From a virus (lineage: Duplodnaviria; Heunggongvirae; Uroviricota; Caudoviricetes), in IMG/VR virus record IMGVR_UViG_2917413769_000007, positions 1 to 13,143 of that record: a stretch of DNA of 13,143 nucleotides; one strand, 5' to 3'. Of the stretch, positions 1 through 13,143 are shown piece after piece (positions within the stretch are counted from its first letter, which is position 1; each line of letters opens with the position of its first letter). The notes beneath the pieces are model-generated. The model was not told the origin of the DNA. It was given only the letters and a program-made list of their open reading frames with translations, and did not search any database. Position numbers and translations under genes: made by a program.

Positions 1-126
1 CGCCATAAATACCGGGAAAGGGATACCTGCATCGGTAATGGTTTCCAGCATCATGTCCTGGTTTTCTGGCACAAATACTTTGTTAAAGCCCGAGGCGAAG
101 AAGAACACTCCGAGAGCCAATCGCAT
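1..126 (-). CDS. Membrane protein, DoxX-like (first 42 codons only; gene runs off the window start); probable host flank
   Basis: Manual minus-strand translation from ATG at 126..124 gives MRLALGVFFFASGFNKVFVPENQDMMLETITDAGIPFPVFMA, a hydrophobic N-terminus typical of small inner-membrane proteins. No convincing SD upstream; in-frame stop at 187..189 bounds the ORF. Confidence 0.3.
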   Translation of the reverse strand, partial: MRLALGVFFFASGFNKVFVPENQDMMLETITDAGIPFPVFMA

Positions 127-429
127 TATGGCTAGTGGGATAAAGCTGCGGGTGCCCGGCGTCTGAAAAAAAAGCCTGCAAACAGGTCATAAATATTCTC
201 CCTGATTATGGGGTTGATTGTCACTTACAGGGAGGTATTTTCCTCCCCGGACGCAGGTAAAGATCATATAGCTTCAGATTCGCTGCGTTATTGAACCATA
301 CTGAACGCAGCATACCAGTGCAAGCAAGGTATAGAAAATTTGCTGTGAGCATCTCGAAGTGAAGTTAAGGAGTTGTTTATAGGATAGGCACCTCCGGCAG
401 CCATTATCGAAACATAGACTACCGGAGAG

Positions 430-560
430 AGGAAAATGATAATGTGTATATATTTGCGTATTAAAAATCAAATAAACTCAATATATAGCGATATAACATA
501 TTGATTTAAAGTACTTTGTTGTATTTTGGATAATCTTTATCGTACCGGATATCATATGGC
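430..560. other. AT-rich segment, candidate prophage/host junction
   Basis: About 130 bp of strongly AT-biased sequence (tatatat, ttaaaaatcaaataaa) between the Tfa remnant and the membrane-protein gene; no ORF of coding character. Confidence 0.3.
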
Positions 561-830
561 CTACGCCTCCGACAAATCAGGCCAGCTAACATGTTCAGGG
601 TCGGTTGTAACATCAACCGACTTAACCTTATTCTTATAATTCAGCCAGGCCGACAGTTTTGCTCTGCCGGTGTCGCTGATTTCCCCCAGCATTAACTCTG
701 TGCGCCAGTCGAGCATAGCTGCATCTGCATGGACCAGCAGTTGCTGGCGAACCCGGTTGGCGGCAGCAATCGATGCGGCATTTTTCGCTTCAGTATTCGT
801 GACCCATTTCTCAACCAGTTGTTTATCCAC
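561..830 (-). pseudogene. Tail fiber assembly protein (Tfa) C-terminal domain, probable remnant
   Basis: 89-aa ORF with GTG start; ending LSAWLNYKNKVKSVDVTTDPEHVSWPDLSEA matches from memory the lambda/P2 Tfa C-terminus ([28 protein letters not shown]). Sits right after replication genes with no tail genes in between. Confidence 0.45.
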
Positions 831-1071
831 CAGATCCCCCTTCGTGCTGCTGCCGCCAATAATTCAAACGTTGTCTGAAAAACTCCCGATAACTCTCCGG
901 CGTCGCGTCAATGTGCTGAATAACAGTCTGGCGAGTAACTTTACGCTCATAGAGCTGACGAACGAGCGCAGCGGCGCGCATGTCGTAATGCTCTTTGAGT
1001 TGGCACTCTTGTGGCCATTTTGCACGATTGAGCGGGAGACCGGGCGGGAGGTAATCCGATTGCCCGGCCAT
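823..1071 (-). CDS. Hypothetical protein (82 aa); possibly the upstream part of a frameshifted tfa-like gene
   Basis: ORF with ATG at 1071..1069; contains YLPPGLPLN resembling the YIPPHTGLPAN motif of Tfa N-regions; ends in GGSGG at a C5/G5 homopolymer (836..840) where the next ORF begins in another frame. Confidence 0.35.
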   Translation of the reverse strand: MAGQSDYLPPGLPLNRAKWPQECQLKEHYDMRAAALVRQLYERKVTRQTVIQHIDATPESYREFFRQRLNYWRQQHEGGSGG

Positions 1072-1074
1072 GCC

Positions 1075-1755
1075 TTAAGTCCTCATGTTTTTCTCTGAGT
1101 GAACGTAGAAACGGGGATCAACGCTTTTCAGCGTGAAGTGTGTAACGGGCATGTCGTCATGCCGCTCGATGCCAACAAAGTTAGACATGCAAAGCGCAAA
1201 GACGCGTTTCTGAAGTTGATCCAGGCTTATTTTGATGTCCGGGTAATATTTTTTGATCGCAGACATGATCCCCTGATATGAGAGCGTTTTACCCTTCATA
1301 ATCGCCACAAGGTGTTCCGCCGGCAGTTCGCTGGATTTTTGGGTTAATTGGGATTCAGTGGGATTCTCAATGGGTTTTATGGTATCCAACAGCAGACAAC
1401 AGCGGCTGGTAATACCTACCCTATAGCCCGTTTTTTTGTCGTAATTCTCTTTGCTTCCGGAAGTCCATACAGTTGCTGTTTCGCGAAGTTTTACTGTCTT
1501 CTCTCCACCTGAATAAATAACGGTTCCCGTATGCGTCTTACTGAAACACCGTGGGTTGGTTTCAACAGGTTTTGATTTTTTAGTTTTTTTGGCCGCGCGA
1601 GCAGTTAATCCCGGAACAGGTACTGGGCGCGGGCAAGGCACATAAACTGAACGGCTGCGAGCCCTAGCACCTGCGTTCATCCGCCAGATGATTACGTTTG
1701 TCCAGTCACAGGCATCGTCATCTGTCGCTACTTTAGGATAAATTAAATCGGTCAT
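1075..1755 (-). CDS. Hypothetical protein (226 aa from ATG 1755)
   Basis: Long ORF after the helicase; ATG at 1755..1753 is preceded on the coding strand by GAGGAAAGACCA (complement of 1757..1767). The ORF-track start at 1779 is a GTG without that RBS. No family recognised. Confidence 0.5.
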   Translation of the reverse strand: MTDLIYPKVATDDDACDWTNVIIWRMNAGARARSRSVYVPCPRPVPVPGLTARAAKKTKKSKPVETNPRCFSKTHTGTVIYSGGEKTVKLRETATVWTSGSKENYDKKTGYRVGITSRCCLLLDTIKPIENPTESQLTQKSSELPAEHLVAIMKGKTLSYQGIMSAIKKYYPDIKISLDQLQKRVFALCMSNFVGIERHDDMPVTHFTLKSVDPRFYVHSEKNMRT

Positions 1756-1793
1756 TGGTCTTTCCTCATTGTATTTCACGCTGGTCAGGCGTT

Positions 1794-3182
1794 TTAGAAT
1801 GCGTCGGTGTTGTACTTCTCTGCATACTTCCGTTGCTGTTTTCTGGGTTTTGCTGCCTCCAGTTGAATACGGGTCTTCTCTTTGCCGACGAGCTGATCGA
1901 TTGGCAGAAAGTGACCGTTTTTAAATTCCTGATAAACCACAGTACCAGCAGCCGCAAACCGGCATTTGCCGAGAATGACCTCAGCCACACCAGCCGCCGG
2001 GCTTTCAGGGTTATAAACTTCATCGCGGTACAGAAACAGGATGCTGTCAGCGTCCTGCTCGATGGAACCAGAATCACGCAGGTCTGACATTACCGGGCGA
2101 CGCTGCGCCGCCGGACGCGTATCAACCGCGCGGGAAAGCTGGCTGAGCGCAAAGGTCGGTGTATGTAGCCGCATAGCCATCGTTTTGAGATTGCGGGAAA
2201 TGTGCGCTACGGCAAGGTCGTTACGCTCTGCTTTCGGTTTCTTAATCAGGCCGAGATAGTCGACCATGATCATTGCCAGATGCGGATGGCGTCGCTTGTG
2301 TGTCTCCGCGATAGCGCGGATCTGTTCGACTGTGAGATCGGTCGCATCGACAATCCAGATGTCCCTGTCTGTAAGTTCTCCAATGGCTGCGGTCAATCTC
2401 GCCCAGTCCTCGTCGTACATGTCCTGAGGATTACGCAGGCGAGAAACGGACAAGTTTCCGGCACCAGCTAGCGAACGTTCAACAATCTGAGCCGCCGCCA
2501 TTTCCATGCTGAAAATCAACGCGCCGCCGCCCTTTGCCGTCACACCTTCAACGACGGTAAGCGCAAACTCTGTTTTACCCATGCCTGGGCGACCAGCCAC
2601 GACAATAAGATCCTGCGGGTTAATACTGCCTGTTGCGTTATCAAGATCCGCAATACCAGTCAGCAAATTGCGCGTGGATTCGTCACCGTCCATACGTTTC
2701 TGTACTGTGTCCATGTAAGCGGGCAAAAGCTCGTTGATGTGTACCGGCTGAACGTCGCCACTATCAGCAGTCATGTCCAGCAGCTGCGCCACTGCATTTT
2801 CGACCACTTGATCTCGTTGCTCCTGGTTGGCAGCTTTGCGGATGCCGTCAGCGCCATCCTGCAGAAGTTTCGCCAGCGCGCGGCTGCGCCAGGCCTTAAC
2901 CATCTTCCCGGCATACCCTTTCAGGTTCGGCACCGTTGCGGGGATACGGGATATTTCAGACAGGTCAGCCAGACTTGAACCGCCCAGCGCTTCGCTGATG
3001 AATAACATGTCGATCATGCCGTTAGTCAGCGCCTGTTTTTTTATCTCGCTGAATGTACGGCGATGAAAACCAATGCTGAATGATTCTTCTGGCGTGGAGG
3101 CGATCACGTCAAATGCGTCAGGAGAAGCACCGCCATTCAACAGGCCAGCCAGCACACACGCTTCCAGTTCCTGAGGATTCAT
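1794..3182 (-). CDS. Replicative DNA helicase, DnaB family (phage-encoded)
   Basis: 462-aa ORF; Walker A GRPGMGKT followed by other DnaB-like C-terminal-domain sequence (IVVAGRPGMGKTEFAL, SMEM, MIMVDYLGLI, SQLSR); start ATG overlaps the upstream gene stop as ATGA (3182..3179). Confidence 0.9.
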   Translation of the reverse strand: MNPQELEACVLAGLLNGGASPDAFDVIASTPEESFSIGFHRRTFSEIKKQALTNGMIDMLFISEALGGSSLADLSEISRIPATVPNLKGYAGKMVKAWRSRALAKLLQDGADGIRKAANQEQRDQVVENAVAQLLDMTADSGDVQPVHINELLPAYMDTVQKRMDGDESTRNLLTGIADLDNATGSINPQDLIVVAGRPGMGKTEFALTVVEGVTAKGGGALIFSMEMAAAQIVERSLAGAGNLSVSRLRNPQDMYDEDWARLTAAIGELTDRDIWIVDATDLTVEQIRAIAETHKRRHPHLAMIMVDYLGLIKKPKAERNDLAVAHISRNLKTMAMRLHTPTFALSQLSRAVDTRPAAQRRPVMSDLRDSGSIEQDADSILFLYRDEVYNPESPAAGVAEVILGKCRFAAAGTVVYQEFKNGHFLPIDQLVGKEKTRIQLEAAKPRKQQRKYAEKYNTDAF

Positions 3183-4432
3183 AATGCCTCTTCCCTGGTT
3201 TTACGCAGTGTTTCGGGTTTCATGAGATAATCAAAACTGGCACGCCAGCCGTCGTGATGCTCGCCACCGAAATAAAATTCAGGAGCGGTGTTGCGAAATT
3301 TCTCAAGGTATCCCAGAAACGCGCCTGTAGTTTTATTGATCATGTGGGCTGCGAGGCGTGTAATCATCTGGCGGCGATCGGCGTCCAGGGTTGCAGCAGG
3401 TAGCACATCAGCAAAAATTTCGTTGTAAGCATCGACTACCGCAACCGGATCAATACTGGCTTCGGTGGTGGCCCATGCCTCAGCGTCAGCCAGATAACCA
3501 TCGAAGCGGCATACTCGACAGATATTTGCCGGTTTAGGGAGGCTGTCACCCCGGCGGCGCCAGGTAGCCAGTACCCAACGAATAACTAACTGAACATCAT
3601 CCAGCGTATAGCCGTCTCGGGTAGTCGTAGGGGTCATAAGCGCCAGGAACGGCTTCATGTCACGGCAGCGAGTACCGGTTTGCACATTGTAAAAATCTAG
3701 TGCTTTTTTAGCATCTGCAAGGATTTGTTCGCGGGAAATATTAGCAACCGAGGATGTTTCTGGATGCGCACCAATCACAGTGATCCCGTCAAATTCGTAG
3801 CGTTCTGTAATTACGCCATCTCTGACCAGAATAAAGCCATCACTAAGCTGTTTTAATTTTGTTATGGATTTATCCCGCACGTTGATTCGATCAATTTCAA
3901 TACCGCATTGTTCACCATCGCTTCCAGTTACTAGTAAATCAACGCGGCCTCTGCGACCGTTACCACGATCAGCTACCGGGTATTCGCGCTGGCAGTCAAA
4001 GCCTGCACCAACAATCGCAGACTCAACAGCATCGTGAAGCTCACCTGCTTTTTCAAAATCAAATTTACCTTCGAGAAGGGAAATCAGTTGCTCACGCAAT
4101 ACATGTCCGCCAACTCTCCCAACGGGAGATTTAGAGGGATATATATTCTCTGTAGTAATCTCTGTATGAATATTTGCTGGTTTTCCACTTACTTGTCTGG
4201 TGGTTTTCCGCACTCCAGTATGTGTTTTTTCCGCATTCTTGTTTGCGGCTATAAGTACCTGATATAAAAACGTCATTATCAACCTTGTAGAAAAGTCGAG
4301 CAGGAACACCTTTTCGTTTTTCCAGCAGTACACCAATTGAGCGAAGTTTTTTACGCGCCCCTTCCTGCTCATAGCGAGAAAGGCCTGTTTCTTCTTCCCA
4401 TTCTTCTTGGGTTTTATATACCCACCCGTCAT
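3179..4432 (-). CDS. Replication initiator (O-like), downstream frame: central nuclease-fold-like segment plus conserved phage replication C-terminal domain
   Basis: C-terminal 170 aa (GYTLDDVQLVIRWVLATWRRRGD...EFYFGGEHHDGWRASFDYL) resemble the conserved C-terminal domain of phage replication initiators, by recollection. The first ~50 codons of the tracked ORF are out-of-frame translation of the N-terminal domain; likely continuation of 4131..4556 across a frameshift. Confidence 0.65.
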   Translation of the reverse strand: MTGGYIKPKKNGKKKQAFLAMSRKGRVKNFAQLVYCWKNEKVFLLDFSTRLIMTFLYQVLIAANKNAEKTHTGVRKTTRQVSGKPANIHTEITTENIYPSKSPVGRVGGHVLREQLISLLEGKFDFEKAGELHDAVESAIVGAGFDCQREYPVADRGNGRRGRVDLLVTGSDGEQCGIEIDRINVRDKSITKLKQLSDGFILVRDGVITERYEFDGITVIGAHPETSSVANISREQILADAKKALDFYNVQTGTRCRDMKPFLALMTPTTTRDGYTLDDVQLVIRWVLATWRRRGDSLPKPANICRVCRFDGYLADAEAWATTEASIDPVAVVDAYNEIFADVLPAATLDADRRQMITRLAAHMINKTTGAFLGYLEKFRNTAPEFYFGGEHHDGWRASFDYLMKPETLRKTREEAL

Positions 4433-4556
4433 CGTCGGATCGGTTAGTCCAGTAGGTCATTTGTGAAAGAAAAAGCGAGGCAGTAACACCAATATTCAGG
4501 CGAATAAAACTACGCTGGAAGGCGATCGGCCTGTCGAGTAGTGGGAGTATATTCAT
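4131..4556 (-). CDS. Replication initiator (O-like), N-terminal replisome-organizer/DNA-binding domain (upstream frame)
   Basis: Motif MTYWTNRSDDDGWVYKTQEEWEEETGLSRYEQEGARKKLRSIGVLLEKRKGVPARLFYKVD, typical of phage replisome-organizer N-domains by recollection; ATG at 4556..4554 sits 2 nt after the upstream gene's stop; sequence degrades after FYKVD. Confidence 0.65.
   Translation of the reverse strand: MNILPLLDRPIAFQRSFIRLNIGVTASLFLSQMTYWTNRSDDDGWVYKTQEEWEEETGLSRYEQEGARKKLRSIGVLLEKRKGVPARLFYKVDNDVFISGTYSRKQECGKNTYWSAENHQTSKWKTSKYSYRDYYREYISL
4147..4235. repeat. Candidate replication-origin iterons inside the O-like gene
   Basis: Direct repeats GGTTTTCCACT (4179..4189), GGTTTTCCGCAC (4202..4213), TTTTTCCGCAT (4226..4236) at about 23-bp spacing, plus TCTCTGTA twice (4147..4154, 4159..4166), next to an AT-rich stretch (4255..4280). 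Confidence 0.4.
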
Positions 4557-4558
4557 GA

Positions 4559-4783
4559 TCAAATCCCCAGAGTTTCGGCGATTTGACGACATGCCGCCTG
4601 ATATTCCTCAGATGACAATTCCATTTCACGGAGTTCTTCTTTCAGTTTTTCATACTGCGCCCAGATAGATAGCGCAGCTGCGCGACGGCCTTCGAAAATA
4701 TCTTCGATATCATCCAGGGTGGCTGGCACCCCGTTTAGTCGAAATCCGTTCCGCCATGTAATGCGGTCGATTGAAGTCAGCAT
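4559..4783 (-). CDS. Hypothetical small protein (74 aa) between the YdaT-like and O-like genes
   Basis: ATG at 4783..4781 preceded by GAGGAAAGACCAAT (complement of 4787..4797); product MLTSIDRITWRNGFRLNGVPATLDDIEDIF...; no family recognised. Confidence 0.6.
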   Translation of the reverse strand: MLTSIDRITWRNGFRLNGVPATLDDIEDIFEGRRAAALSIWAQYEKLKEELREMELSSEEYQAACRQIAETLGI

Positions 4784-6110: not shown

Positions 6111-6217
6111 CATCAACGACGCACTAACCACGCGGCAGTTGTTCAGAAAAACGTTCCGCCGCCGGGCGTAAAGCGGATGAGGGAATCGGCGCTAACAACA
6201 AAGCAATGGGGTGAGTG

Positions 6218-6535
6218 ATGGAATTCAGCAAGCTGCCACACGAAGTGCAGGTAATTGCCGCCAAATGCCTGGCAGACGAAATCAATACAGTTTCAGGTTT
6301 TGCAGGCAATGAGGTTAACCGCGGTCCCGCTAAAGAGCAGGCCAAACAGGTTCGTGACGCATTCATTGCTCTTTTTTCAGAGCGCGAGATGGAAGGTGAG
6401 AAAAAAGCGGCAGCAGAGAGAATTGCTGCCACCATCGCAGGCATGCAGCAACTGATTGGTAGCGATGAGGTGCTAAAAACCCAAGTTAAACATCTGATTT
6501 CAGCGACTGAAGATTTGCTTGATAAGTGCCTGTAA
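6218..6535 (+). CDS. Hypothetical protein (105 aa), first gene after the repressor
   Basis: Coding-like composition (MEFSKLPHEVQVIAAKCLADEIN...); GGGGTGAG upstream of ATG; the opposite-strand ORF 6124..6576 is low complexity and judged non-coding. Confidence 0.55.
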   Translation: MEFSKLPHEVQVIAAKCLADEINTVSGFAGNEVNRGPAKEQAKQVRDAFIALFSEREMEGEKKAAAERIAATIAGMQQLIGSDEVLKTQVKHLISATEDLLDKCL

Positions 6536-6736
6536 TTGGTAAGTGACCGATACACCATCTCCGTTAGATGGTCCATCTACATCAGGAAATCGAAGGGTGA
6601 CATTGTTTTTAAGGGCTTTTAGTTGTTCTGAAGTTAACAGTTTAAGGGCTTCATCAAGCATTACGTTTGTTGCTTCCAGAGTGGCTTCTGAGACTTTTGG
6701 CTTAATTTCCTCAAGCATTTTAGAAAGTTGACTCAT
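6500..6736 (-). CDS. Hypothetical protein (78 aa), convergent with 6218..6535
   Basis: Internal ATG at 6736..6734 of the tracked ORF is preceded by AAGG 7 nt upstream; product MSQLSKMLEEIKPKVSEATLEATNVMLDEALKLL...; candidate -10 TATACT (complement of 6769..6774). Confidence 0.4.
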   Translation of the reverse strand: MSQLSKMLEEIKPKVSEATLEATNVMLDEALKLLTSEQLKALKNNVTLRFPDVDGPSNGDGVSVTYQLQALIKQIFSR

Positions 6737-6885
6737 GTTTTTACCTTGCTGGTTATGTGAGAACGCCCAGTATACCACCGAGCCTGAAGTGGCTAAAAGA
6801 CAGGCAACGAATTCGCGGGTCGCCGCCAGTACGATGACATGCGGGAAAGACCGCAATGAATCCAAAATTGCTGTGTGTAGTCTTT

Positions 6886-6912
6886 GCCCAGCCACCACGG
6901 TGGGCACTTTTT
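6886..6912 (+). terminator. Candidate intrinsic terminator (plus strand)
   Basis: GC-rich hairpin GCCCA-N10-TGGGC (or CCAC-CACG-GTGG) followed by ACTTTTTTTC. Confidence 0.45.
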
Positions 6913-7695: not shown

Positions 7696-9918
7696 ATGGT
7701 GCTGTTGCATTGGCAATCAGCATCGAAGCGCCAAATAAAAAAAGTCGCTGAAAGTATCATCATCGGCAAACTCTGGGAGCATTATCCTGCAAATGGCGAC
7801 AACTATTTTAAACCTAAAATCTGGGAAGATTCAGAGGGCCAGCCTCGTCCGGAAGTCGGAAAATTTGATGAGCAATTTGCTCAGGCGAACACATTAGACG
7901 GGGAAAAGTGGATCGCCAACGATTCAGACACCAGTACTTTAAATTTGCCAGCCAACGACGAGATAATCGATCTGACGAAGCTGCCAGCTCGTGAACGCTT
8001 CATTGCCATTCTTATGTTCAGTGATTCCCCCATTGACGGTGTACTGTACTCTCAGGTGCTGGATTATCTTGATAATCTGGAAAATAGCCACGAGCCGTTT
8101 GATGATGACGATCGGCTGAATTCTAATATTCTTCATGCCCTGGAAAATAACGAACCCGTTCGTCACATGCATGTTGAGGGGGTAAACAATCTGATTCAGG
8201 CCATCTTCGCTAAATTTGAAGGCCAGGCACCGGGTAAGGCAGCAATTTCACAGTTCATTAAACGCTGGATGGAAAATCCTCGTAAGCGTGAAGAAATGCG
8301 GCCGGAAAATACCGCATTGAATAATGATGGTGTCAACAATGACAGTAACAAAGTAGCACCACAGCGCGGATATAAGCATTCTTATGCCACACTGGATCAG
8401 GAAATTGCCCTCGCCCTTCTCCCGATTAATTTCACAGAAACAGTATCAGTTCGTGCGCTACGATCTGCTGAACACATCATTGAAGAAGACCGAGAAGATT
8501 TCAAACGCTGGTCAGCGGCACTACGTACGACAGAGCAGATCCTGAAGTATGACCGCCCCAGTGTTTTTGGCGTTATTCAGAATGCACCTGCTAAAGATAC
8601 ATACCATTTCCCTGAGTCACTGCGGCACCATATTGATTCCTGGCTGGCTGAAAATGGTCAGTTCGAGTGTGCTGGTACTGATGCGGAGAGAACCAGCAAA
8701 CTGCTTGCGGCAGAGCGCGGCGAGTACGTCGAAGGTATCAGCGACCCTAACGATCCTAAATGGGTTAAAACAGATTCCCAACCTCAGGTATCAAACCTCG
8801 GCAATGGAATGTTCTCTGTTGATAATCTTCTGCCTGAAACCGCCTCAAAGGAAGGTGAAAAACAGGAAGTGACCGAACAAGGAACTGTTACAGAAGACCA
8901 GGCAACACAGGCCCGAGAAAAGTTGAACAGCATGGGTTACGGCGTTTATGCAACGAACCATGACGAAACTGACCAGCAGGAAGAAAAGCTGAGCGATAAA
9001 GTAAAAACTCTCGTTCAGGATGCGGATCAACTTGTCGAGCGCGTTAAACGTGAAGAGCAGCTCCCGCAGGCATCTGAACTGGTTCAGAGCATCAACGAAA
9101 TGCAGTCTACTGAACGCGATAACCTGGAATTGTGGAAAGAGGTGTTCAAAACAGATGAGCGTTTTACTACTGCGTTCTCTGTGAATGGCGGCGGAACCTC
9201 AATCAATGGCACCTACATGACCATGATCGCTACCCGCGAATTTGGTCCGAAAGGTATCGGCTGGGGTGTGGATATTCTTGAAGAACGCTTTGACGATGGC
9301 GCGCCAATTACTCGCGCAGTCAAAGGGACTGACGGTAACAATACATGGGAGTTTATTCCCGACGGTGTAGGCGGCATCCTGACAGAGAAACACCACGTTA
9401 TCAAAATCAGACTTTGGTACATCCGGAATGGTGCGCGCGGTGAAGAGATTTCATTCGGGTGTACCCCGTATATTTACGGCAGCAAATACGGCCCTATTTG
9501 CGATGGTGAAGCGACAAAAAAATCACTGACTGACGCAACCAAAAAAGCGCTGTCTGCACTTGGTTTCTGCGCTGATATTTTCATGGGCCTGTACGATAAC
9601 CCGGAGTATCGCCAGAAAAATAAAGCAGAATTCGCGCTCAAAAACGCCAGCGAAAACGCCGAGGATGCCGCCCGCGTACGTCAGGAACTGGACGACAAAC
9701 TGACCCGAGTCGCTAACACCATTGCATCTGCTGTATCAGAGCACGAGATCAACAAGGTCTATTCTTCGATTGCTCGCGAAGCGGAGGTGCATCGCAAGGA
9801 TGCAGAGGCGAAAGGTGACACACAGCATGCCCGTTACTTAGGTGGGCGTCTGCGTCGCCTGACAACTATCAAAGATGGACGTATCGCCGAACTGAAAAAA
9901 GTACAGGAGAAAGCATAA
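7696..9918 (+). CDS. Large protein with C-terminal Erf/Rad52-like single-strand annealing domain and ~470-aa unknown N-terminal region
   Basis: 740-codon ORF; residues ~480-640 (EATKKSLTDATKKALSALGFCADIFMGLYD) match the Erf (GATSSYARKYCLNGLFGIDD) and Rad52 helix motifs from memory; tracked ATG 7696 has no usable SD; see frameshift finding. Confidence 0.8.
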   Translation: MVLLHWQSASKRQIKKVAESIIIGKLWEHYPANGDNYFKPKIWEDSEGQPRPEVGKFDEQFAQANTLDGEKWIANDSDTSTLNLPANDEIIDLTKLPARERFIAILMFSDSPIDGVLYSQVLDYLDNLENSHEPFDDDDRLNSNILHALENNEPVRHMHVEGVNNLIQAIFAKFEGQAPGKAAISQFIKRWMENPRKREEMRPENTALNNDGVNNDSNKVAPQRGYKHSYATLDQEIALALLPINFTETVSVRALRSAEHIIEEDREDFKRWSAALRTTEQILKYDRPSVFGVIQNAPAKDTYHFPESLRHHIDSWLAENGQFECAGTDAERTSKLLAAERGEYVEGISDPNDPKWVKTDSQPQVSNLGNGMFSVDNLLPETASKEGEKQEVTEQGTVTEDQATQAREKLNSMGYGVYATNHDETDQQEEKLSDKVKTLVQDADQLVERVKREEQLPQASELVQSINEMQSTERDNLELWKEVFKTDERFTTAFSVNGGGTSINGTYMTMIATREFGPKGIGWGVDILEERFDDGAPITRAVKGTDGNNTWEFIPDGVGGILTEKHHVIKIRLWYIRNGARGEEISFGCTPYIYGSKYGPICDGEATKKSLTDATKKALSALGFCADIFMGLYDNPEYRQKNKAEFALKNASENAEDAARVRQELDDKLTRVANTIASAVSEHEINKVYSSIAREAEVHRKDAEAKGDTQHARYLGGRLRRLTTIKDGRIAELKKVQEKA

Positions 9919-11093: not shown

Positions 11094-12113
11094 ATGGGGC
11101 GCAGAAGAAAGGATCCGGGTGATAACAGGTTACCCCCGCGCGTATCAAAAACCAGAACTCGTTACTACTACAAACCCACCTCGCGGGAGACCGTGACGCT
11201 TGGACCAATCACCTTCACTATGTCGGCGTTATGGAAACGGTACGAAGAAGAGCGACGCAATTATTCAGATGTGATGACGTTCGAAAAGCTCTGGAAGATG
11301 TTTCTTAAAAGCGCCTACTACACCGAGCTTGCAATACGAACCCAGCGGGATTACCTGCAACATCAGAAAAAACTACTTGTCGTATTCGGTAAAGTTAAAG
11401 CTGATTTAATCAAACCGGAAGACGTTCGTCAGTTTATGGATCGTCGTGGCCTACAAAGTAAAAATCAGGCTAACCAGGAAATGAGCAGTATGTCGCGTGT
11501 TTACCGCTGGGGATACGAACGCGGTTACGTTAAGGGAAACCCGTGCGCCGGCGTCAGTAAATTCTCTCTCAAGGCCCGCGAGCAATACATCACTGACGAA
11601 GACTACCTGGCGATTTATAAACATGCAGATCACGTCGTCAGGGCAGCAATGGAAATATCGTACCTGTGCGCAGCCCGGCAAGCTGATGTACTCGCTCTGC
11701 GCTGGATGCAGATATCTGACAAGGGGATTTTTATCCAGCAGGGTAAGACAGGGAAAAAGCAAATTAAGGTGTGGACGCCCCGCCTTCGGCAGGCGCTGGA
11801 AACGGCACAGACAGAATGCCCGAGGCTCTCACCTGATTCACTGGTTATCTATAACAACGATCGTGCTCAGTTCATCCGCAAGACGTTCAATAATCGCTGG
11901 CTAAAGGCCGTACGTGCCGCACAAAGCGAACTGGGCCGGCAACTGGATTACACGTTTCACGATATAAAGGCAAAAGCCATTTCAGATTTTGAGGGGAGTA
12001 GCAGGGATAAGCAGATATTTAGCGGTCACAAAACAGAAAGTCAGGTGCTTATCTACGACAGAAAGGTGCAAATCAGTCCGACGCTGGATCGTCCTTTGAT
12101 AAATGGCCAGTAG
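11094..12113 (+). CDS. int: Tyrosine recombinase / phage integrase
   Basis: 339 aa; alignable by eye to lambda Int catalytic region: AARQADVLALRW (Arg-I), QQGKTGKK (Lys), TFHDIKAKAISDF (His box), FSGHKTESQVLIYDRK (His-II and Tyr). Confidence 0.9.
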   Translation: MGRRRKDPGDNRLPPRVSKTRTRYYYKPTSRETVTLGPITFTMSALWKRYEEERRNYSDVMTFEKLWKMFLKSAYYTELAIRTQRDYLQHQKKLLVVFGKVKADLIKPEDVRQFMDRRGLQSKNQANQEMSSMSRVYRWGYERGYVKGNPCAGVSKFSLKAREQYITDEDYLAIYKHADHVVRAAMEISYLCAARQADVLALRWMQISDKGIFIQQGKTGKKQIKVWTPRLRQALETAQTECPRLSPDSLVIYNNDRAQFIRKTFNNRWLKAVRAAQSELGRQLDYTFHDIKAKAISDFEGSSRDKQIFSGHKTESQVLIYDRKVQISPTLDRPLINGQ

Positions 12114-12114
12114 T

Positions 12115-12144
12115 TTGACAAATCCGCATCAACGGGGCTATATT
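12115..12144 (+). promoter_or_regulatory. Candidate sigma70 promoter immediately after int, reading toward antA
   Basis: TTGACA (12115..12120), 18-nt spacer, TATATT (12139..12144). Confidence 0.5.
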
Positions 12145-12174
12145 CCGCTTCATGGTGCTGAACACACCTTGCAA

Positions 12175-12212
12175 AGCGGAAACCGCACCTGTCAGTCATG
12201 CGGATTTTTTAT
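12175..12212 (+). terminator. Candidate attenuator/terminator in the antA leader
   Basis: GCGG-AAA-CCGC hairpin (12175..12185) shares its CCGC with an alternative CCGCA-N11-TGCGG stem (12182..12202) followed by ATTTTTTAT; stems are short. Confidence 0.3.
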
Positions 12213-12357
12213 GTCCATTTTTCAGATATGGTCGGGTAGCGCGTATACCGAAAAACAGCCGAAAGGTTAAGGATACGGGCCGACTTTGCACGGTGTTCAA
12301 GTACCTGACCGCCCTGCTGAACACAGGGCTATCTGAACAAATGCAAAGGACATAAAA

Positions 12358-13143
12358 ATGACCAATCAACTCATCCCCGTTTTCAACGGCACGATATCCA
12401 ACGACCCCCACCTGCTCTGCAATGCCCGCGATCTGCACGCCTTCCTCGAAGTAGGCAAGCGCTTCGCTACTTGGATTACTGACCGACTAAACGAGTATCA
12501 ATTCGTTGAAAATCAGGACTACATAGCTATTTCCCAAAAACGGGAAATAGGTCATGGGCGTGGCCGCAAGGACTTCTACATCACCCTGGACACCGCCAAG
12601 GAACTGGCGATGGTTGAGCGCAACGAAAAAGGCCGCCAGATCCGCCGATACTTCATTGAGTGCGAGAAGCAACTCAGTCAGAACAAAGAATCAATTGTCC
12701 TGACCACTCCGATGCATCGAACGCCACTACGTGACGCCGTTCACCTTCTTGTCGGTATGCGCTGCATGGCATTTCAGGAAGCCTATCAGCTTATCCACCA
12801 GCGCTTTGGCGTCGGTAGTATTGAACAACTCACCCGCGCACAAGTGATGGATGCCATAGAGTACATTCATTGTCTGTTAGCAGACGGGGCAACAGGGAAA
12901 CTCCCCTCCGGCGAAAGCAGAATATTAATCACCCTTCGAAATGGAGAAATAATCAAGACAAGGGCCATTGGAGCTGATGAGCATGTCGCAACGCTGGAGG
13001 CTTTTATCGAACTGGCGAGAAGTGCGCATTACATTGTCATCCACAAGGATGGTGCAGCGCCATTGATGAAGGCATTAACAGGAGGGAGATCTGAGGAAGG
13101 CAAAAGACACAAACTGAATAATTATTCAGTTTGCGATTTCTGA
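12358..13143 (+). CDS. antA: Phage antirepressor, AntA-type N-terminal domain with C-terminal extension
   Basis: 261 aa; ARDLHAFLEVGKRFATWITDRLNEYQFVENQDYIAI and DFYITLDTAKELAMVERNEKGRQIRRYFIECEKQL match the AntA domain from memory; SD AAGGA 9 nt upstream; stop at the last three bases of the window. Confidence 0.8.
   Translation: MTNQLIPVFNGTISNDPHLLCNARDLHAFLEVGKRFATWITDRLNEYQFVENQDYIAISQKREIGHGRGRKDFYITLDTAKELAMVERNEKGRQIRRYFIECEKQLSQNKESIVLTTPMHRTPLRDAVHLLVGMRCMAFQEAYQLIHQRFGVGSIEQLTRAQVMDAIEYIHCLLADGATGKLPSGESRILITLRNGEIIKTRAIGADEHVATLEAFIELARSAHYIVIHKDGAAPLMKALTGGRSEEGKRHKLNNYSVCDF

What the first reader, a model, noticed from the sequence alone, without database searches (positions are those of the whole stretch)
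561..1779. Late region missing: replication genes run directly into a tail-fiber-assembly remnant and an AT-rich junction
In lambdoid genomes the helicase is followed by the nin region, Q, lysis, head and tail genes, with tfa near the far end. Here one unknown ORF follows the helicase, then a Tfa-like C-terminal domain, then the AT-rich junction and a host-like membrane gene. The 82-aa and 89-aa ORFs meet at a C5 homopolymer (836..840) in different frames, so one tfa-like gene may be frameshifted. ORF 1075..1755 and the 82-aa ORF are in the same frame, separated by one TAA.
Basis: partly seen in the sequence, partly recalled or inferred. Interest (0 to 1): 0.45.

Follow-up and report, generated by a model that had tools for sequence, protein, structure and literature searches.

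The report
Prophage late genes flipped, not lost
The window shows one edge of a 29-kb block holding all the lysis, head and tail genes of a prophage; the block has been flipped in place, so the replication genes now abut the stump of a tail-fibre chaperone gene, which is ordinary prophage decay rather than a new system.

Summary
The sequence observations are real. ORF 561..830 is the C-terminal part of a tail-fibre assembly protein (Tfa; Pfam Caudo_TAP, E 1e-16). Region 400..545 is 27% GC. The helicase is followed only by a 226-aa gene and an 82-aa gene before this stump.

- The 226-aa and 82-aa genes are intact and conserved. Every intact relative has the same TAA-GGC-ATG spacing and the same G5/C5 run, so there is no frameshift.
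- The 89-aa ORF is an in-frame chimera. It joins the first five codons of the gene that normally follows the 82-aa gene to the last 84 codons of a tfa' gene. The junction is at 814/815.
- The late region is not deleted. In the same strain (Escherichia sp. E1130) a 300-kb contig reads: yccA, attR, hyp, IS3, truncated invertase, methylase stump, Q, lysis, terminase, head, tail, fibre, tfa, acetyltransferase, DoxX, tfa' stump, 82 aa, replication genes, int, tRNA-Ser, hyaA. About 29 kb is inverted. About 3.5 kb (methylases) and, by estimate from a relative, about 0.8 kb (invertase N-terminus, tfa' N-terminus) are lost.
- The "host-like" DoxX gene is prophage cargo that lies between convergent tfa genes.

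This is ordinary prophage decay and of low interest.

The parts
1..190 (-). 5' end (63 codons) of a DoxX-family membrane gene. It is prophage cargo, not host. The gene runs off the window and is 162 aa in the other assembly. In the window an A8 run at 166-173 (T7 in the other assembly) breaks the reading frame.
   Evidence: (Pfam DoxX)
191..560 (.). AT-rich intergenic region upstream of DoxX (27-33% GC), with sigma-70-like hexamers on both strands. It is internal to the prophage. Positions 541/545..560 retain a vestige of the 3' end of a once-convergent partner tfa gene.
561..815 (-). Last 84 codons plus stop of a tfa' (tail-fibre assembly) gene of an invertible-segment type. The N-terminal ~58 codons are missing.
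814..815 (.). Junction R. This is the right-hand breakpoint of the ~29-kb inverted late block. To the right, the sequence is collinear with the intact relatives.
816..830 (-). First five codons (GTG GAT AAA CAA CTG) of the 94-aa gene (phrog_1344) that follows the 82-aa gene in intact phages. They now supply the start of the chimeric 89-aa ORF.
561..830 (-). Chimeric in-frame ORF of 89 aa: MDKQL plus the Tfa' C-terminal domain. Its GTG start overlaps the stop codon of the 82-aa gene (GTGGATAA).
823..1071 (-). Intact 82-aa gene, a homologue of DNA polymerase III theta (HOT-like). The identical protein occurs in hundreds of assemblies.
1075..1755 (-). Intact 226-aa gene of unknown function (phrog_4183, full length). 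It lies directly after the helicase in all relatives.
1794..3182 (-). DnaB-type replicative helicase.
11094..12113 (+). Tyrosine integrase. The prophage end (tRNA-Ser/attL) lies about 80 nt beyond the right edge of the window.
12358..13143 (+). AntA-like gene, cargo between int and the tRNA-Ser att site.

Best explanation
The window is the right-hand ~13 kb of a ~43.6-kb lambdoid prophage with a Mu-type contractile-tail module. The prophage is integrated in tRNA-Ser(UGA) between yccA and hyaA in Escherichia sp. E1130. A ~29-kb block carrying the whole late region has been inverted in place. The block runs from the 3' end of the Dcm-like methylase gene through Q, holins, endolysin, terminase, portal, head, tail, baseplate, fibre and tfa, then the convergent acetyltransferase-DoxX cargo cassette and the 3' part of tfa'.

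Window 1..814 is the distal end of that flipped block. Position 815 onwards is the unflipped early region.

Four breakpoints are needed:
- B1: invertase, about codon 70.
- B2: tfa', about codon 58.
- B3: about 200 nt before the dcm stop codon.
- B4: codon 5 of the 94-aa gene downstream of the 82-aa gene.

The piece B1-B2 (invertase N-terminus, probably Sv', and the tfa' N-terminus; about 0.8 kb) is absent. So is the piece B3-B4 (the rest of the 94-aa gene, the N6/N4 methylase, a 90-aa gene and most of dcm; about 3.5 kb).

Shown: the gene order, the orientations, both junctions, both att sites, the in-frame fusion at junction R, and 5-8 nt of possible microhomology ((AGC)ATGCG) at junction L.

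Inferred:
- The event was illegitimate recombination. Either two breaks were resected and the middle piece was rejoined backwards by microhomology-mediated end joining, or replication switched template. It was not site-specific or homologous recombination.
- The prophage is now locked. Q and the late operon no longer lie downstream of the early-right promoter, so lytic growth should stall before late gene expression, although int, xis, attL and attR look intact.
- Early-right transcription now runs through the chimeric Tfa stump into DoxX and the acetyltransferase.
For: - Homology to eleven intact relatives in E. coli and in assemblies whose proteins the sources name as Citrobacter/Salmonella ends at window 815 (ten of them; L002 at 836). 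In those relatives the 82-aa gene is followed by a 94/83-aa gene, methylases, DUF1367, YbcO, Q, lysis genes and terminase on the same strand.
- Alignment A1 shows the switch after GTG GAT AAA CAA CTG. Protein alignment A2 places the Tfa homology from residue 6 onwards.
- A second assembly of the same strain (VATL01000016.1) is 99.97% identical to the window. It continues leftwards through DoxX, the acetyltransferase, then tfa (170 aa), fibre (567 aa), Baseplate_J and onwards, all on the opposite strand.
- An IMG/VR contig overlaps that contig at 100% identity over 5.6 kb. It carries hyp, IS3, an invertase C-terminal 119 aa, the dcm 3' stump, Q, lysis genes, terminase, portal and tail.
- The same 300-kb contig holds yccA, the attR half-tRNA, hyp, IS3 and inv' at exactly the predicted coordinates. 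It also holds int, antA, tRNA-Ser and hyaA.
- GenBank protein accession numbers TLI70090 to TLI70143 run in the order given above.
- Junction L also appears in a separate re-assembly of reads (L196). Junction R appears in four assemblies.
- The intact E. coli relative has yccA, hyp, invertase, tfa, fibre and the late genes all on the minus strand. This gives the ancestral orientation.
- The late ORFs have the lengths expected from relatives.
Against: - All the evidence comes from one strain: two read sets and two to three assemblies.
- A ~4.3-kb near-identical copy of the end of the 207-aa gene, fibre, tfa, acetyltransferase, DoxX, the AT-rich region and the last 77 nt of tfa' sits at the attR end of a second prophage at argU. 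The window's own assembly breaks in this repeat. The link from the baseplate to DoxX at the tRNA-Ser locus therefore rests on the VATL contig alone.
- The two lost pieces mean that a single clean inversion is not enough. The order and number of events are unknown.
- The functional consequences (no late transcription, cargo read-through) are untested inferences.
Confidence: 0.82

Rival explanations
1. Simple internal deletion. Everything from the nin region to the middle of tfa was deleted. On this view the Tfa stump marks the old far end of the prophage, and the AT-rich DNA plus DoxX are the host flank.
For: Within the window alone, the replication genes abut a Tfa C-terminal fragment, followed by AT-rich DNA and a non-phage-looking membrane gene.
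Against: - The host flank of this prophage family is yccA with a half tRNA-Ser. In the same strain that flank lies ~30 kb further left, with Q, lysis, terminase, head and tail genes in between.
- DoxX is followed by an acetyltransferase and a convergent full-length tfa and fibre gene, with only 10 nt between the stop codons.
- The DoxX DNA was not found in 5,426 E. coli genomes at blastn sensitivity.
Confidence: 0.04
2. Assembly chimera. The tRNA-Ser prophage really lacks late genes, and the tail genes placed left of DoxX in the VATL contig belong to the argU prophage. They would have been joined wrongly through the ~4.3-kb shared repeat.
For: - A near-identical repeat exists, and the window's own assembly (PDIL) breaks inside it. 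Fibre fragments lie on three contig ends.
Against: - Junction L places Q, lysis genes and terminase, in inverted orientation, directly next to the yccA/attR end of the tRNA-Ser prophage. This is independent of the repeat.
- The argU prophage has its own distinct tail module, about 75-80% identical outside the repeat.
- The two assemblies link the SNP patches to the right-hand flanks consistently.
- If the chromosome is collinear with K-12, the two copies lie in direct orientation. The swapped linkage would then not give a viable linear order (inference).
Confidence: 0.08
3. Invertase-mediated inversion. The phage's own Gin/Pin-type serine invertase flipped the block using pseudo-crossover sites, as reported for Cin quasi-sites in phage P1 (own knowledge).
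For: - The family encodes an invertase next to attR.
- Both left-hand breakpoints fall inside the invertase/tfa' module.
Against: - No match to a gix/hix/cix-type 26-bp consensus with up to 3 mismatches in L015 or L029. That consensus was written from memory.
- No inverted repeats at the junctions.
- The breakpoints lie inside coding sequences, including inside the invertase gene itself.
- DNA is lost at both junctions, whereas conservative site-specific recombination loses none.
Confidence: 0.05
4. Frameshifted single gene. On this view the 82-aa and 89-aa ORFs are two halves of one tfa-like gene split at the C5 run.
For: The two ORFs overlap next to a C5 run and are in different frames.
Against: - The 82-aa protein is a complete member of phrog_1105 (theta/HOT-like, E 3e-30) with no Tfa similarity.
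- The identical 82-aa protein, with the same G5 run and stop codon, occurs in intact prophages listed in 808 blocks of the collection's index.
- The window differs from the second assembly at three other homopolymers, but not at this one.
Confidence: 0.01

Closest known systems
Intact tRNA-Ser (serT) lambdoid prophages of E. coli and of assemblies whose proteins the sources name as Citrobacter/Salmonella, e.g. NZ_CM174221.1 4,765,400-4,807,700 (L029/L001)
   Same: - Same att site (yccA | tRNA-Ser-hyaA).
- Same early gene order: int, DUF4224 xis, Gp157, YdfE_N, cI, cro, YdaT, initiator, DnaB, 226 aa, 82 aa.
- Same Q/lysis/terminase genes: the Q region is 92-96% identical in DNA.
- Same tail gene order, and hyp plus invertase next to attR.
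   Different: - In E1130 the late block is inverted.
- The methylase module and the invertase N-terminus are lost.
- An IS3-family element sits between hyp and the invertase.
- The fibre end carries a DoxX-acetyltransferase cassette and a tfa' stump.
Cryptic lambdoid prophages of E. coli K-12 (DLP12, Rac, Qin) and prophage decay in general (own knowledge; e.g. Bobay et al. 2014 on domestication of defective prophages)
   Same: A prophage that has lost the ability to complete the lytic cycle through rearrangement, and that carries tfa fragments and an IS insertion.
   Different: The K-12 remnants have lost most structural genes by deletion. Here almost every gene is retained, and the defect is an orientation change plus about 4 kb of loss.
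Invertible tail-fibre segments: Mu G/Gin, P1 C/Cin, e14 P/Pin, and P2-like prophages such as L031 in E. coli QEC11-421
   Same: - Convergent tfa / tfa' genes next to a serine invertase.
- Both the tfa' stump (77% aa identity) and the invertase stump (75%) have their best match in the L031 module.
   Different: - The invertase lacks its catalytic N-terminus (Pfam Resolvase positions 1-78).
- Sv' and the tfa' N-terminus are gone.
- A 1.6-kb cargo cassette separates the two tfa genes.
- The flipped DNA is 29 kb of late genes, not a 3-4-kb host-range segment.
Lysogenic-conversion acyl/acetyltransferases placed convergently after tfa (Salmonella phage SEN34; P2-like Escherichia phages ESSI2_ev015/ev129; Hafnia phage yong2)
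   Same: An acetyltransferase gene lies directly after, and convergent with, the tail-fibre assembly gene. The E1130 enzyme belongs to phage family phrog_2154 (E 5e-57).
   Different: - It is a hexapeptide-repeat (CysE/WcaB-like) enzyme paired with a DoxX membrane protein. SEN34 instead has an Acyl_transf_3 membrane acyltransferase.
- No substrate is known.

Membership tests
Tail-fibre assembly protein (Pfam PF02413 Caudo_TAP / lambda Tfa, Mu U) | Significant match to the family profile | tested here: met
   61.7 bits against a gathering score of 22.1, E 1e-16; phrog_3792/105/188/136
Tail-fibre assembly protein (Pfam PF02413 Caudo_TAP / lambda Tfa, Mu U) | Full-length protein with its N-terminal part | tested here: not met
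   Only profile positions 46-128 of 131 are matched. Residues 1-5 come from another gene. About 58 N-terminal residues are missing relative to the 142-aa homologue in L031.
Tail-fibre assembly protein (Pfam PF02413 Caudo_TAP / lambda Tfa, Mu U) | Gene lies directly downstream of a tail-fibre gene | tested here: not met
   It is preceded by the 82-aa theta-like gene. The Sv' partner is absent.
Late-region-deleted cryptic prophage | No Q, lysis, head or tail genes between the two att sites | tested here: not met
   All are present between the attR half-tRNA and the window.
Gin/Hin/Cin/Pin invertible segment | Serine invertase with its catalytic N-terminal domain | tested here: not met
   The remnant covers Resolvase profile positions 79-144 plus HTH_7 only.
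Gin/Hin/Cin/Pin invertible segment | Pair of inverted ~26-bp crossover sites flanking the flipped DNA | tested here: inconclusive
   No match to a consensus written from memory, allowing up to 3 mismatches. No inverted repeats of 14 nt or more at the junctions. The family's true site sequence was not established.
DNA polymerase III theta / phage HOT family (82-aa gene) | Profile match above the curated threshold | tested here: inconclusive
   phrog_1105 E 3.3e-30 over the full length. However, Pfam PF06440 gives 22.4 bits against a cut-off of 34.6, and NCBIfam NF008207 gives 19.4 against 97. No PDB sequence hit.
tRNA-Ser-integrating lambdoid prophage | Integrase next to a complete tRNA-Ser, with a duplicated tRNA 3' half at the other end | tested here: met
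   tRNA-Ser(tga) lies ~80 nt right of the window. A 96-nt repeat (92% identical), including the tRNA 3' half, lies next to yccA.

The most novel reading that the evidence does not exclude
The inversion is more than decay: it rewired the prophage. Q and the late operon are cut off from the early-right promoter. The DoxX-acetyltransferase cargo and a Tfa C-terminal domain are now placed directly downstream of the replication genes, and the Tfa domain is translationally coupled to the theta-like gene. SOS induction would then switch on a surface- or redox-modifying cassette and a free Tfa chaperone domain instead of killing the cell. That would be a one-step domestication that keeps a complete but silent set of particle genes.
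Probability: 0.08. Interest if true: 0.4.

Novelty: new member of a known kind. Interest (0 to 1): 0.2.

Why it matters
Mainly as a caution. A 13-kb window that starts at a contig end made an inverted late region look like a deleted one, and made phage cargo look like host DNA.

Biologically it is a tidy, fully mapped example of a prophage that was probably disabled by one illegitimate inversion. Almost every gene is kept, and both att sites, int and xis look intact. Such elements would be scored as "intact" by gene-content tools, yet they should be unable to run the late programme.

It also documents recent exchange of a 4.3-kb fibre/cargo module between two co-resident prophages. None of this opens a new question.

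Tried and rejected
1. Exact look-up of the 89-aa ORF in the contig index found nothing, because gene callers used a different start.
3. I predicted a reciprocal chimera (Tfa' N-terminus fused to residues 6-94 of the 94-aa protein) and searched for homologues of the 94-aa protein. No long chimera was found, because that DNA is in fact deleted.
4. An attempt to walk along the contig using homologues of the tape-measure protein returned no exact hit.
5. A search for DoxX in IMG/VR found nothing. A megablast search of the tail block against sequenced phages also found nothing.
6. Searches for a gix/hix-type crossover consensus and for inverted repeats were negative or uninformative.
7. A two-prophage deletion model (the tRNA-Ser prophage fused to an oppositely oriented neighbour) was considered. 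It was dropped once the block left of the window was seen to end in family-typical Q/nin genes joined to the invertase/hyp/yccA end.
8. Two literature searches gave nothing needed for the argument.
9. Structure prediction and deep homology searches on the 226-aa protein were not run. Their answer would not change the verdict.
Full report
**What the window contains**

ORF listing and Pfam give the following layout.
- 1..190(-): the 5' end of a DoxX gene.
- 191..560: AT-rich DNA.
- 561..830(-): an 89-aa Tfa fragment.
- 823..1071(-): an 82-aa ORF.
- 1075..1755(-): a 226-aa ORF.
- 1794..3182(-): a DnaB helicase.
- Then an initiator, YdaT, cro(-), cI(+), a YdfE_N protein, Gp157, a DUF4224 excisionase and the integrase at 11094..12113(+).
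- 12358..13143(+): an AntA-like gene.

So the window is the early half of a lambdoid prophage.

- The Tfa match is E 1e-16 and covers profile positions 46-128 of 131.
- The C5 run is at 836..840, and the two ORFs are in different frames.
- A TAA plus one codon separates the 226-aa and 82-aa ORFs.
- Region 400..545 is 27% GC against 49% for the window.

**What normally follows the helicase**

Four E. coli genomes, ten loci found through the identical 82-aa protein and one further locus carry intact relatives. The sources name the proteins of the non-E. coli loci as Citrobacter or Salmonella.

Where the DNA held reaches that far, these loci read: helicase, 226 aa, a 3-nt gap, 82 aa, a 94/83-aa gene, N6/N4 methylase, a 90-aa gene, Dcm-like methylase, a 112-aa gene, DUF1367, YbcO, Q (DUF1133), holin, endolysin, terminase and onwards, all on one strand. 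The methylase module varies between loci (L002, L028 and L036 differ).

The 226-aa gene is a full-length member of phrog_4183 (E 1e-93). The 82-aa gene is a full-length member of phrog_1105, annotated as DNA polymerase III theta (E 3e-30; Pfam and NCBIfam scores fall below their thresholds). A 56%-identical full-length homologue of the 226-aa protein occurs in sequenced Stenotrophomonas phages BUCT708 and BUCT709.

Both genes are therefore ordinary, intact nin-region genes, and the in-frame TAA between them is the normal arrangement.

**The junction**

Blast of the window against nine of these relatives stops at window 815 in eight of them and at 836 in L002. The megablast matches H2 and H4 behave the same way.

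Alignment A1 shows that in the relatives the stop codon of the 82-aa gene overlaps the GTG start of the next gene...GGGGGATCAGGTGGATAAACAACTGGAAGAG... The window has the same G5 run, the same stop and the same GTG GAT AAA CAA CTG, and then switches to Tfa sequence (GTT GAG AAA TGG...).

Protein alignment A2 puts the Tfa homology from residue 6 of the 89-aa ORF. The ORF is thus an in-frame chimera: five codons of the 94-aa gene plus the last 84 codons of a tfa gene. There is no frameshift at the C5 run. The window differs from a second assembly of the same strain at three other homopolymers, but not at this one.

**What lies to the left of the window**

The exact 226-aa protein occurs on only four contigs. 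The window is the first 13,143 nt of PDIL01000007.1 (100% identity).

A second assembly, VATL01000016.1, is 99.97% identical and runs on. After the Tfa stump come the AT-rich region, a full-length DoxX (162 aa) and a hexapeptide acetyltransferase (181 aa). Ten nucleotides later, on the other strand, come a full-length tfa (170 aa), a fibre gene (567 aa), a 207-aa gene, Baseplate_J and further tail genes. Both assemblies are of Escherichia sp. E1130.

The sizes and order of the tail genes match the tail module of the intact relatives. Their orientation, however, is opposite to the replication genes and to hyaA, which a deletion alone cannot produce.

**Following the block to its other end**

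An IMG/VR contig overlaps the VATL contig at 100% identity over 5,626 nt. Three further scans recovered all 26.9 kb of it.

In window orientation it reads:
- a 90-aa gene, hyp(+);
- an IS3-family element;
- the C-terminal 119 aa of a serine invertase(-), covering Resolvase profile positions 79-144 plus HTH_7;
- on the + strand, the last ~200 nt of the Dcm-like methylase, then Rem, DUF1367, YbcO, Q, two holins, endolysin, an Rz-like gene, small and large terminase, portal, head genes, sheath and tube, a 606-aa tape measure and the baseplate.

The Q region is 92-96% identical to the intact relatives. In the intact E. coli relative, hyp(+) and invertase(-) are the last two genes before yccA, in this same orientation, and all late genes are on the minus strand.

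An exact look-up of hyp returns VATL01000016.1 at the coordinates I had predicted. To its left lie yccS, yccF, helD, mgsA, hspQ, rlmI, tusE and yccA. A 96-nt copy of the tRNA-Ser 3' half (attR) sits between yccA and hyp.

To the right of the window, the same contig has tRNA-Ser(tga), hyaABCDEF and appCB. GenBank accession numbers TLI70090 (hyp) through TLI70143 (int) run in exactly this order. Junction L is also present in a re-assembly of the reads of SRR8835199 (L196).

**Reconstruction**

The ancestor read: yccA, attR, hyp, invertase(-), Sv'(+), tfa'(+), AT-rich region, DoxX(+), AcT(+), then tfa(-), fibre(-), the tail, head and terminase genes, Q, dcm, a 90-aa gene, the N6/N4 methylase and the 94-aa gene (all -), then 82 aa(-), 226 aa(-), DnaB(-) and onwards to int(+), attL/tRNA-Ser and hyaA.

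The invertase-Sv'-tfa' order is taken from the P2-like E. coli module L031. That module holds the best match to both the tfa' stump (77% aa identity) and the invertase stump (75%).

The present state needs four breakpoints:
- invertase, about codon 70;
- tfa', about codon 58;
- about 200 nt before the dcm stop codon;
- codon 5 of the 94-aa gene.

The ~29 kb between the second and third breakpoints is inverted, from window coordinate about -28,219 to 814. About 0.8 kb and about 3.5 kb at the two ends are gone.

At junction L, the invertase reading frame ...AGC ATG CGA CAT... and the dcm sequence ...GCAGCATGCG|C... share 5-8 nt. Junction R cannot be assessed, because no close copy of the ancestral tfa' is available.

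No crossover-site-like sequence and no inverted repeat is associated with either junction. I therefore infer an illegitimate event, either microhomology-assisted rejoining of a doubly broken and resected segment or a replication template switch. The recollection that E. coli has such a RecBCD/LigA-dependent end-joining activity is my own knowledge and was not checked here.

**Consequences (inferred)**

- The late ORFs have the lengths seen in relatives, and int, xis and both att sites look intact.
- Q and the late operon now point away from the early-right operon and lie downstream of an invertase stump and an IS element. The late programme should therefore not be reached.
- Early-right transcription would now continue through the chimeric ORF and the AT-rich region into DoxX and the acetyltransferase, which are on the same strand.

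**The AT-rich region and DoxX**

These are internal to the prophage. Homology of the tfa' stump to E. coli tfa loci continues 16-20 nt past its stop codon, to 541/545. In L031 those positions are the overlapping 3' end of the convergent tfa. The cassette therefore sits where two tfa genes once met.

The acetyltransferase belongs to a phage family (phrog_2154, E 5e-57). It resembles CysE/WcaB/EpsC-type O-acetyltransferases below their equivalog cut-offs. Related enzymes sit in the same position in other phage contigs and in P2-like phages, and SEN34 has a convergent acyltransferase after tfa.

The window's DoxX region found no E. coli match at blastn sensitivity.

**Caveat: a second copy**

PDIL contig 3 starts inside the fibre gene. 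It runs through tfa, AcT, DoxX, the AT-rich region and the last 77 nt of tfa'. It then joins the last 37 codons of an invertase, a partial argU tRNA, emrE, ybcH, nfrA and nfrB. This is the attR end of a second prophage at argU.

That prophage's own tail module ends PDIL contig 10. It is about 75-80% identical to the tRNA-Ser prophage's module until the last 832 nt, which are identical.

The two prophages thus share a ~4.3-kb near-identical module: window ..637, equivalent to L015 11119..~15427. Within the 3.1 kb that the two assemblies allow to be compared, the copies differ only in two SNP patches. This explains why the window's contig ends inside DoxX and why the fibre gene is split over contig ends in PDIL. 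It also means that the baseplate-to-DoxX link at the tRNA-Ser locus rests on the VATL assembly alone.

Three points argue against a chimeric contig.
- Junction L independently places inverted late genes at the yccA end.
- The two assemblies pair the SNP patches with the flanks consistently.
- The swapped linkage would not give a collinear chromosome (inference).

I give the chimera reading about 8%.

**Verdict**

There is an abnormal fusion of the early operon to a Tfa remnant. It marks the edge of an inverted late region, not a deleted one. There is no frameshifted tfa gene, and the "host" gene is phage cargo. This is a new instance of a well-known kind of thing, prophage decay by rearrangement, and of low general interest.

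Noticed in passing
window 166-173, 4266-4270, 7737-7743: The window (PDIL assembly) differs from the VATL assembly of the same strain only by three +1 insertions in A/T runs. They frameshift DoxX, split the 458-aa replication initiator into ORFs 3179..4432 and 4131..4592, and shorten the YdfE_N protein from 756 to 740 aa. Homopolymer sequencing errors are the likely cause.
   Followed up: partly
window 1-637; L194 (PDIL01000003.1 1-10917); L197 (PDIL01000010.1 end): A second prophage, at argU next to a DLP12-like emrE-ybcH-nfrAB region, carries a ~4.3-kb near-identical copy of the fibre-tfa-AcT-DoxX-tfa' module. In the 3.1 kb that can be compared it differs only in two small SNP patches, and its tfa' is cut to 77 nt and fused to the last 37 codons of an invertase. 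This points to recent exchange between co-resident prophages.
   Followed up: partly
window 12114-13143: Homology to the relatives ends at 12094-12101, just before the int stop codon. From 12114 the DNA matches the antirepressor region of Stx-converting phages at 85-90%. An AntA-like 261-aa gene sits as cargo between int and tRNA-Ser.
   Followed up: partly
window 823-1071: The 82-aa gene after the helicase belongs to a phage family annotated as DNA polymerase III theta (HOT-like). The profile match is strong in PHROGs but falls below the Pfam and NCBIfam thresholds. The identical protein is listed in 808 blocks of the collection's index.
   Followed up: partly
window 1075-1755: Residues 161-230 of the 226-aa protein weakly resemble the late-promoter-activating protein family PF25716 (23.5 bits against a cut-off of 35). 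The function remains unknown.
   Followed up: no
window 3724-4746 and 6157-6795: These stretches have no DNA homology to any of the intact relatives examined. The first covers the N-terminal part of the replication initiator (458 aa here, against a 327-aa HTH_36 protein in relatives). The second is a segment downstream of cI with ORFs 6215..6535(+) and 6500..6907(-). Both look like typical mosaic module swaps.
   Followed up: no
L115 335-1569 (= L195 10362-11569): An IS3-family element (orfA/orfB) is inserted between hyp and the invertase stump at the attR end of the prophage. It is not at either inversion junction.
   Followed up: partly
L017, L018 (Logan contigs), ending at window ~608-618: Both k=31 re-assemblies break inside the tfa' stump, about 20-30 nt inside the point (637/638) where the tRNA-Ser and argU copies diverge. 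This fits the two-copy repeat.
   Followed up: partly
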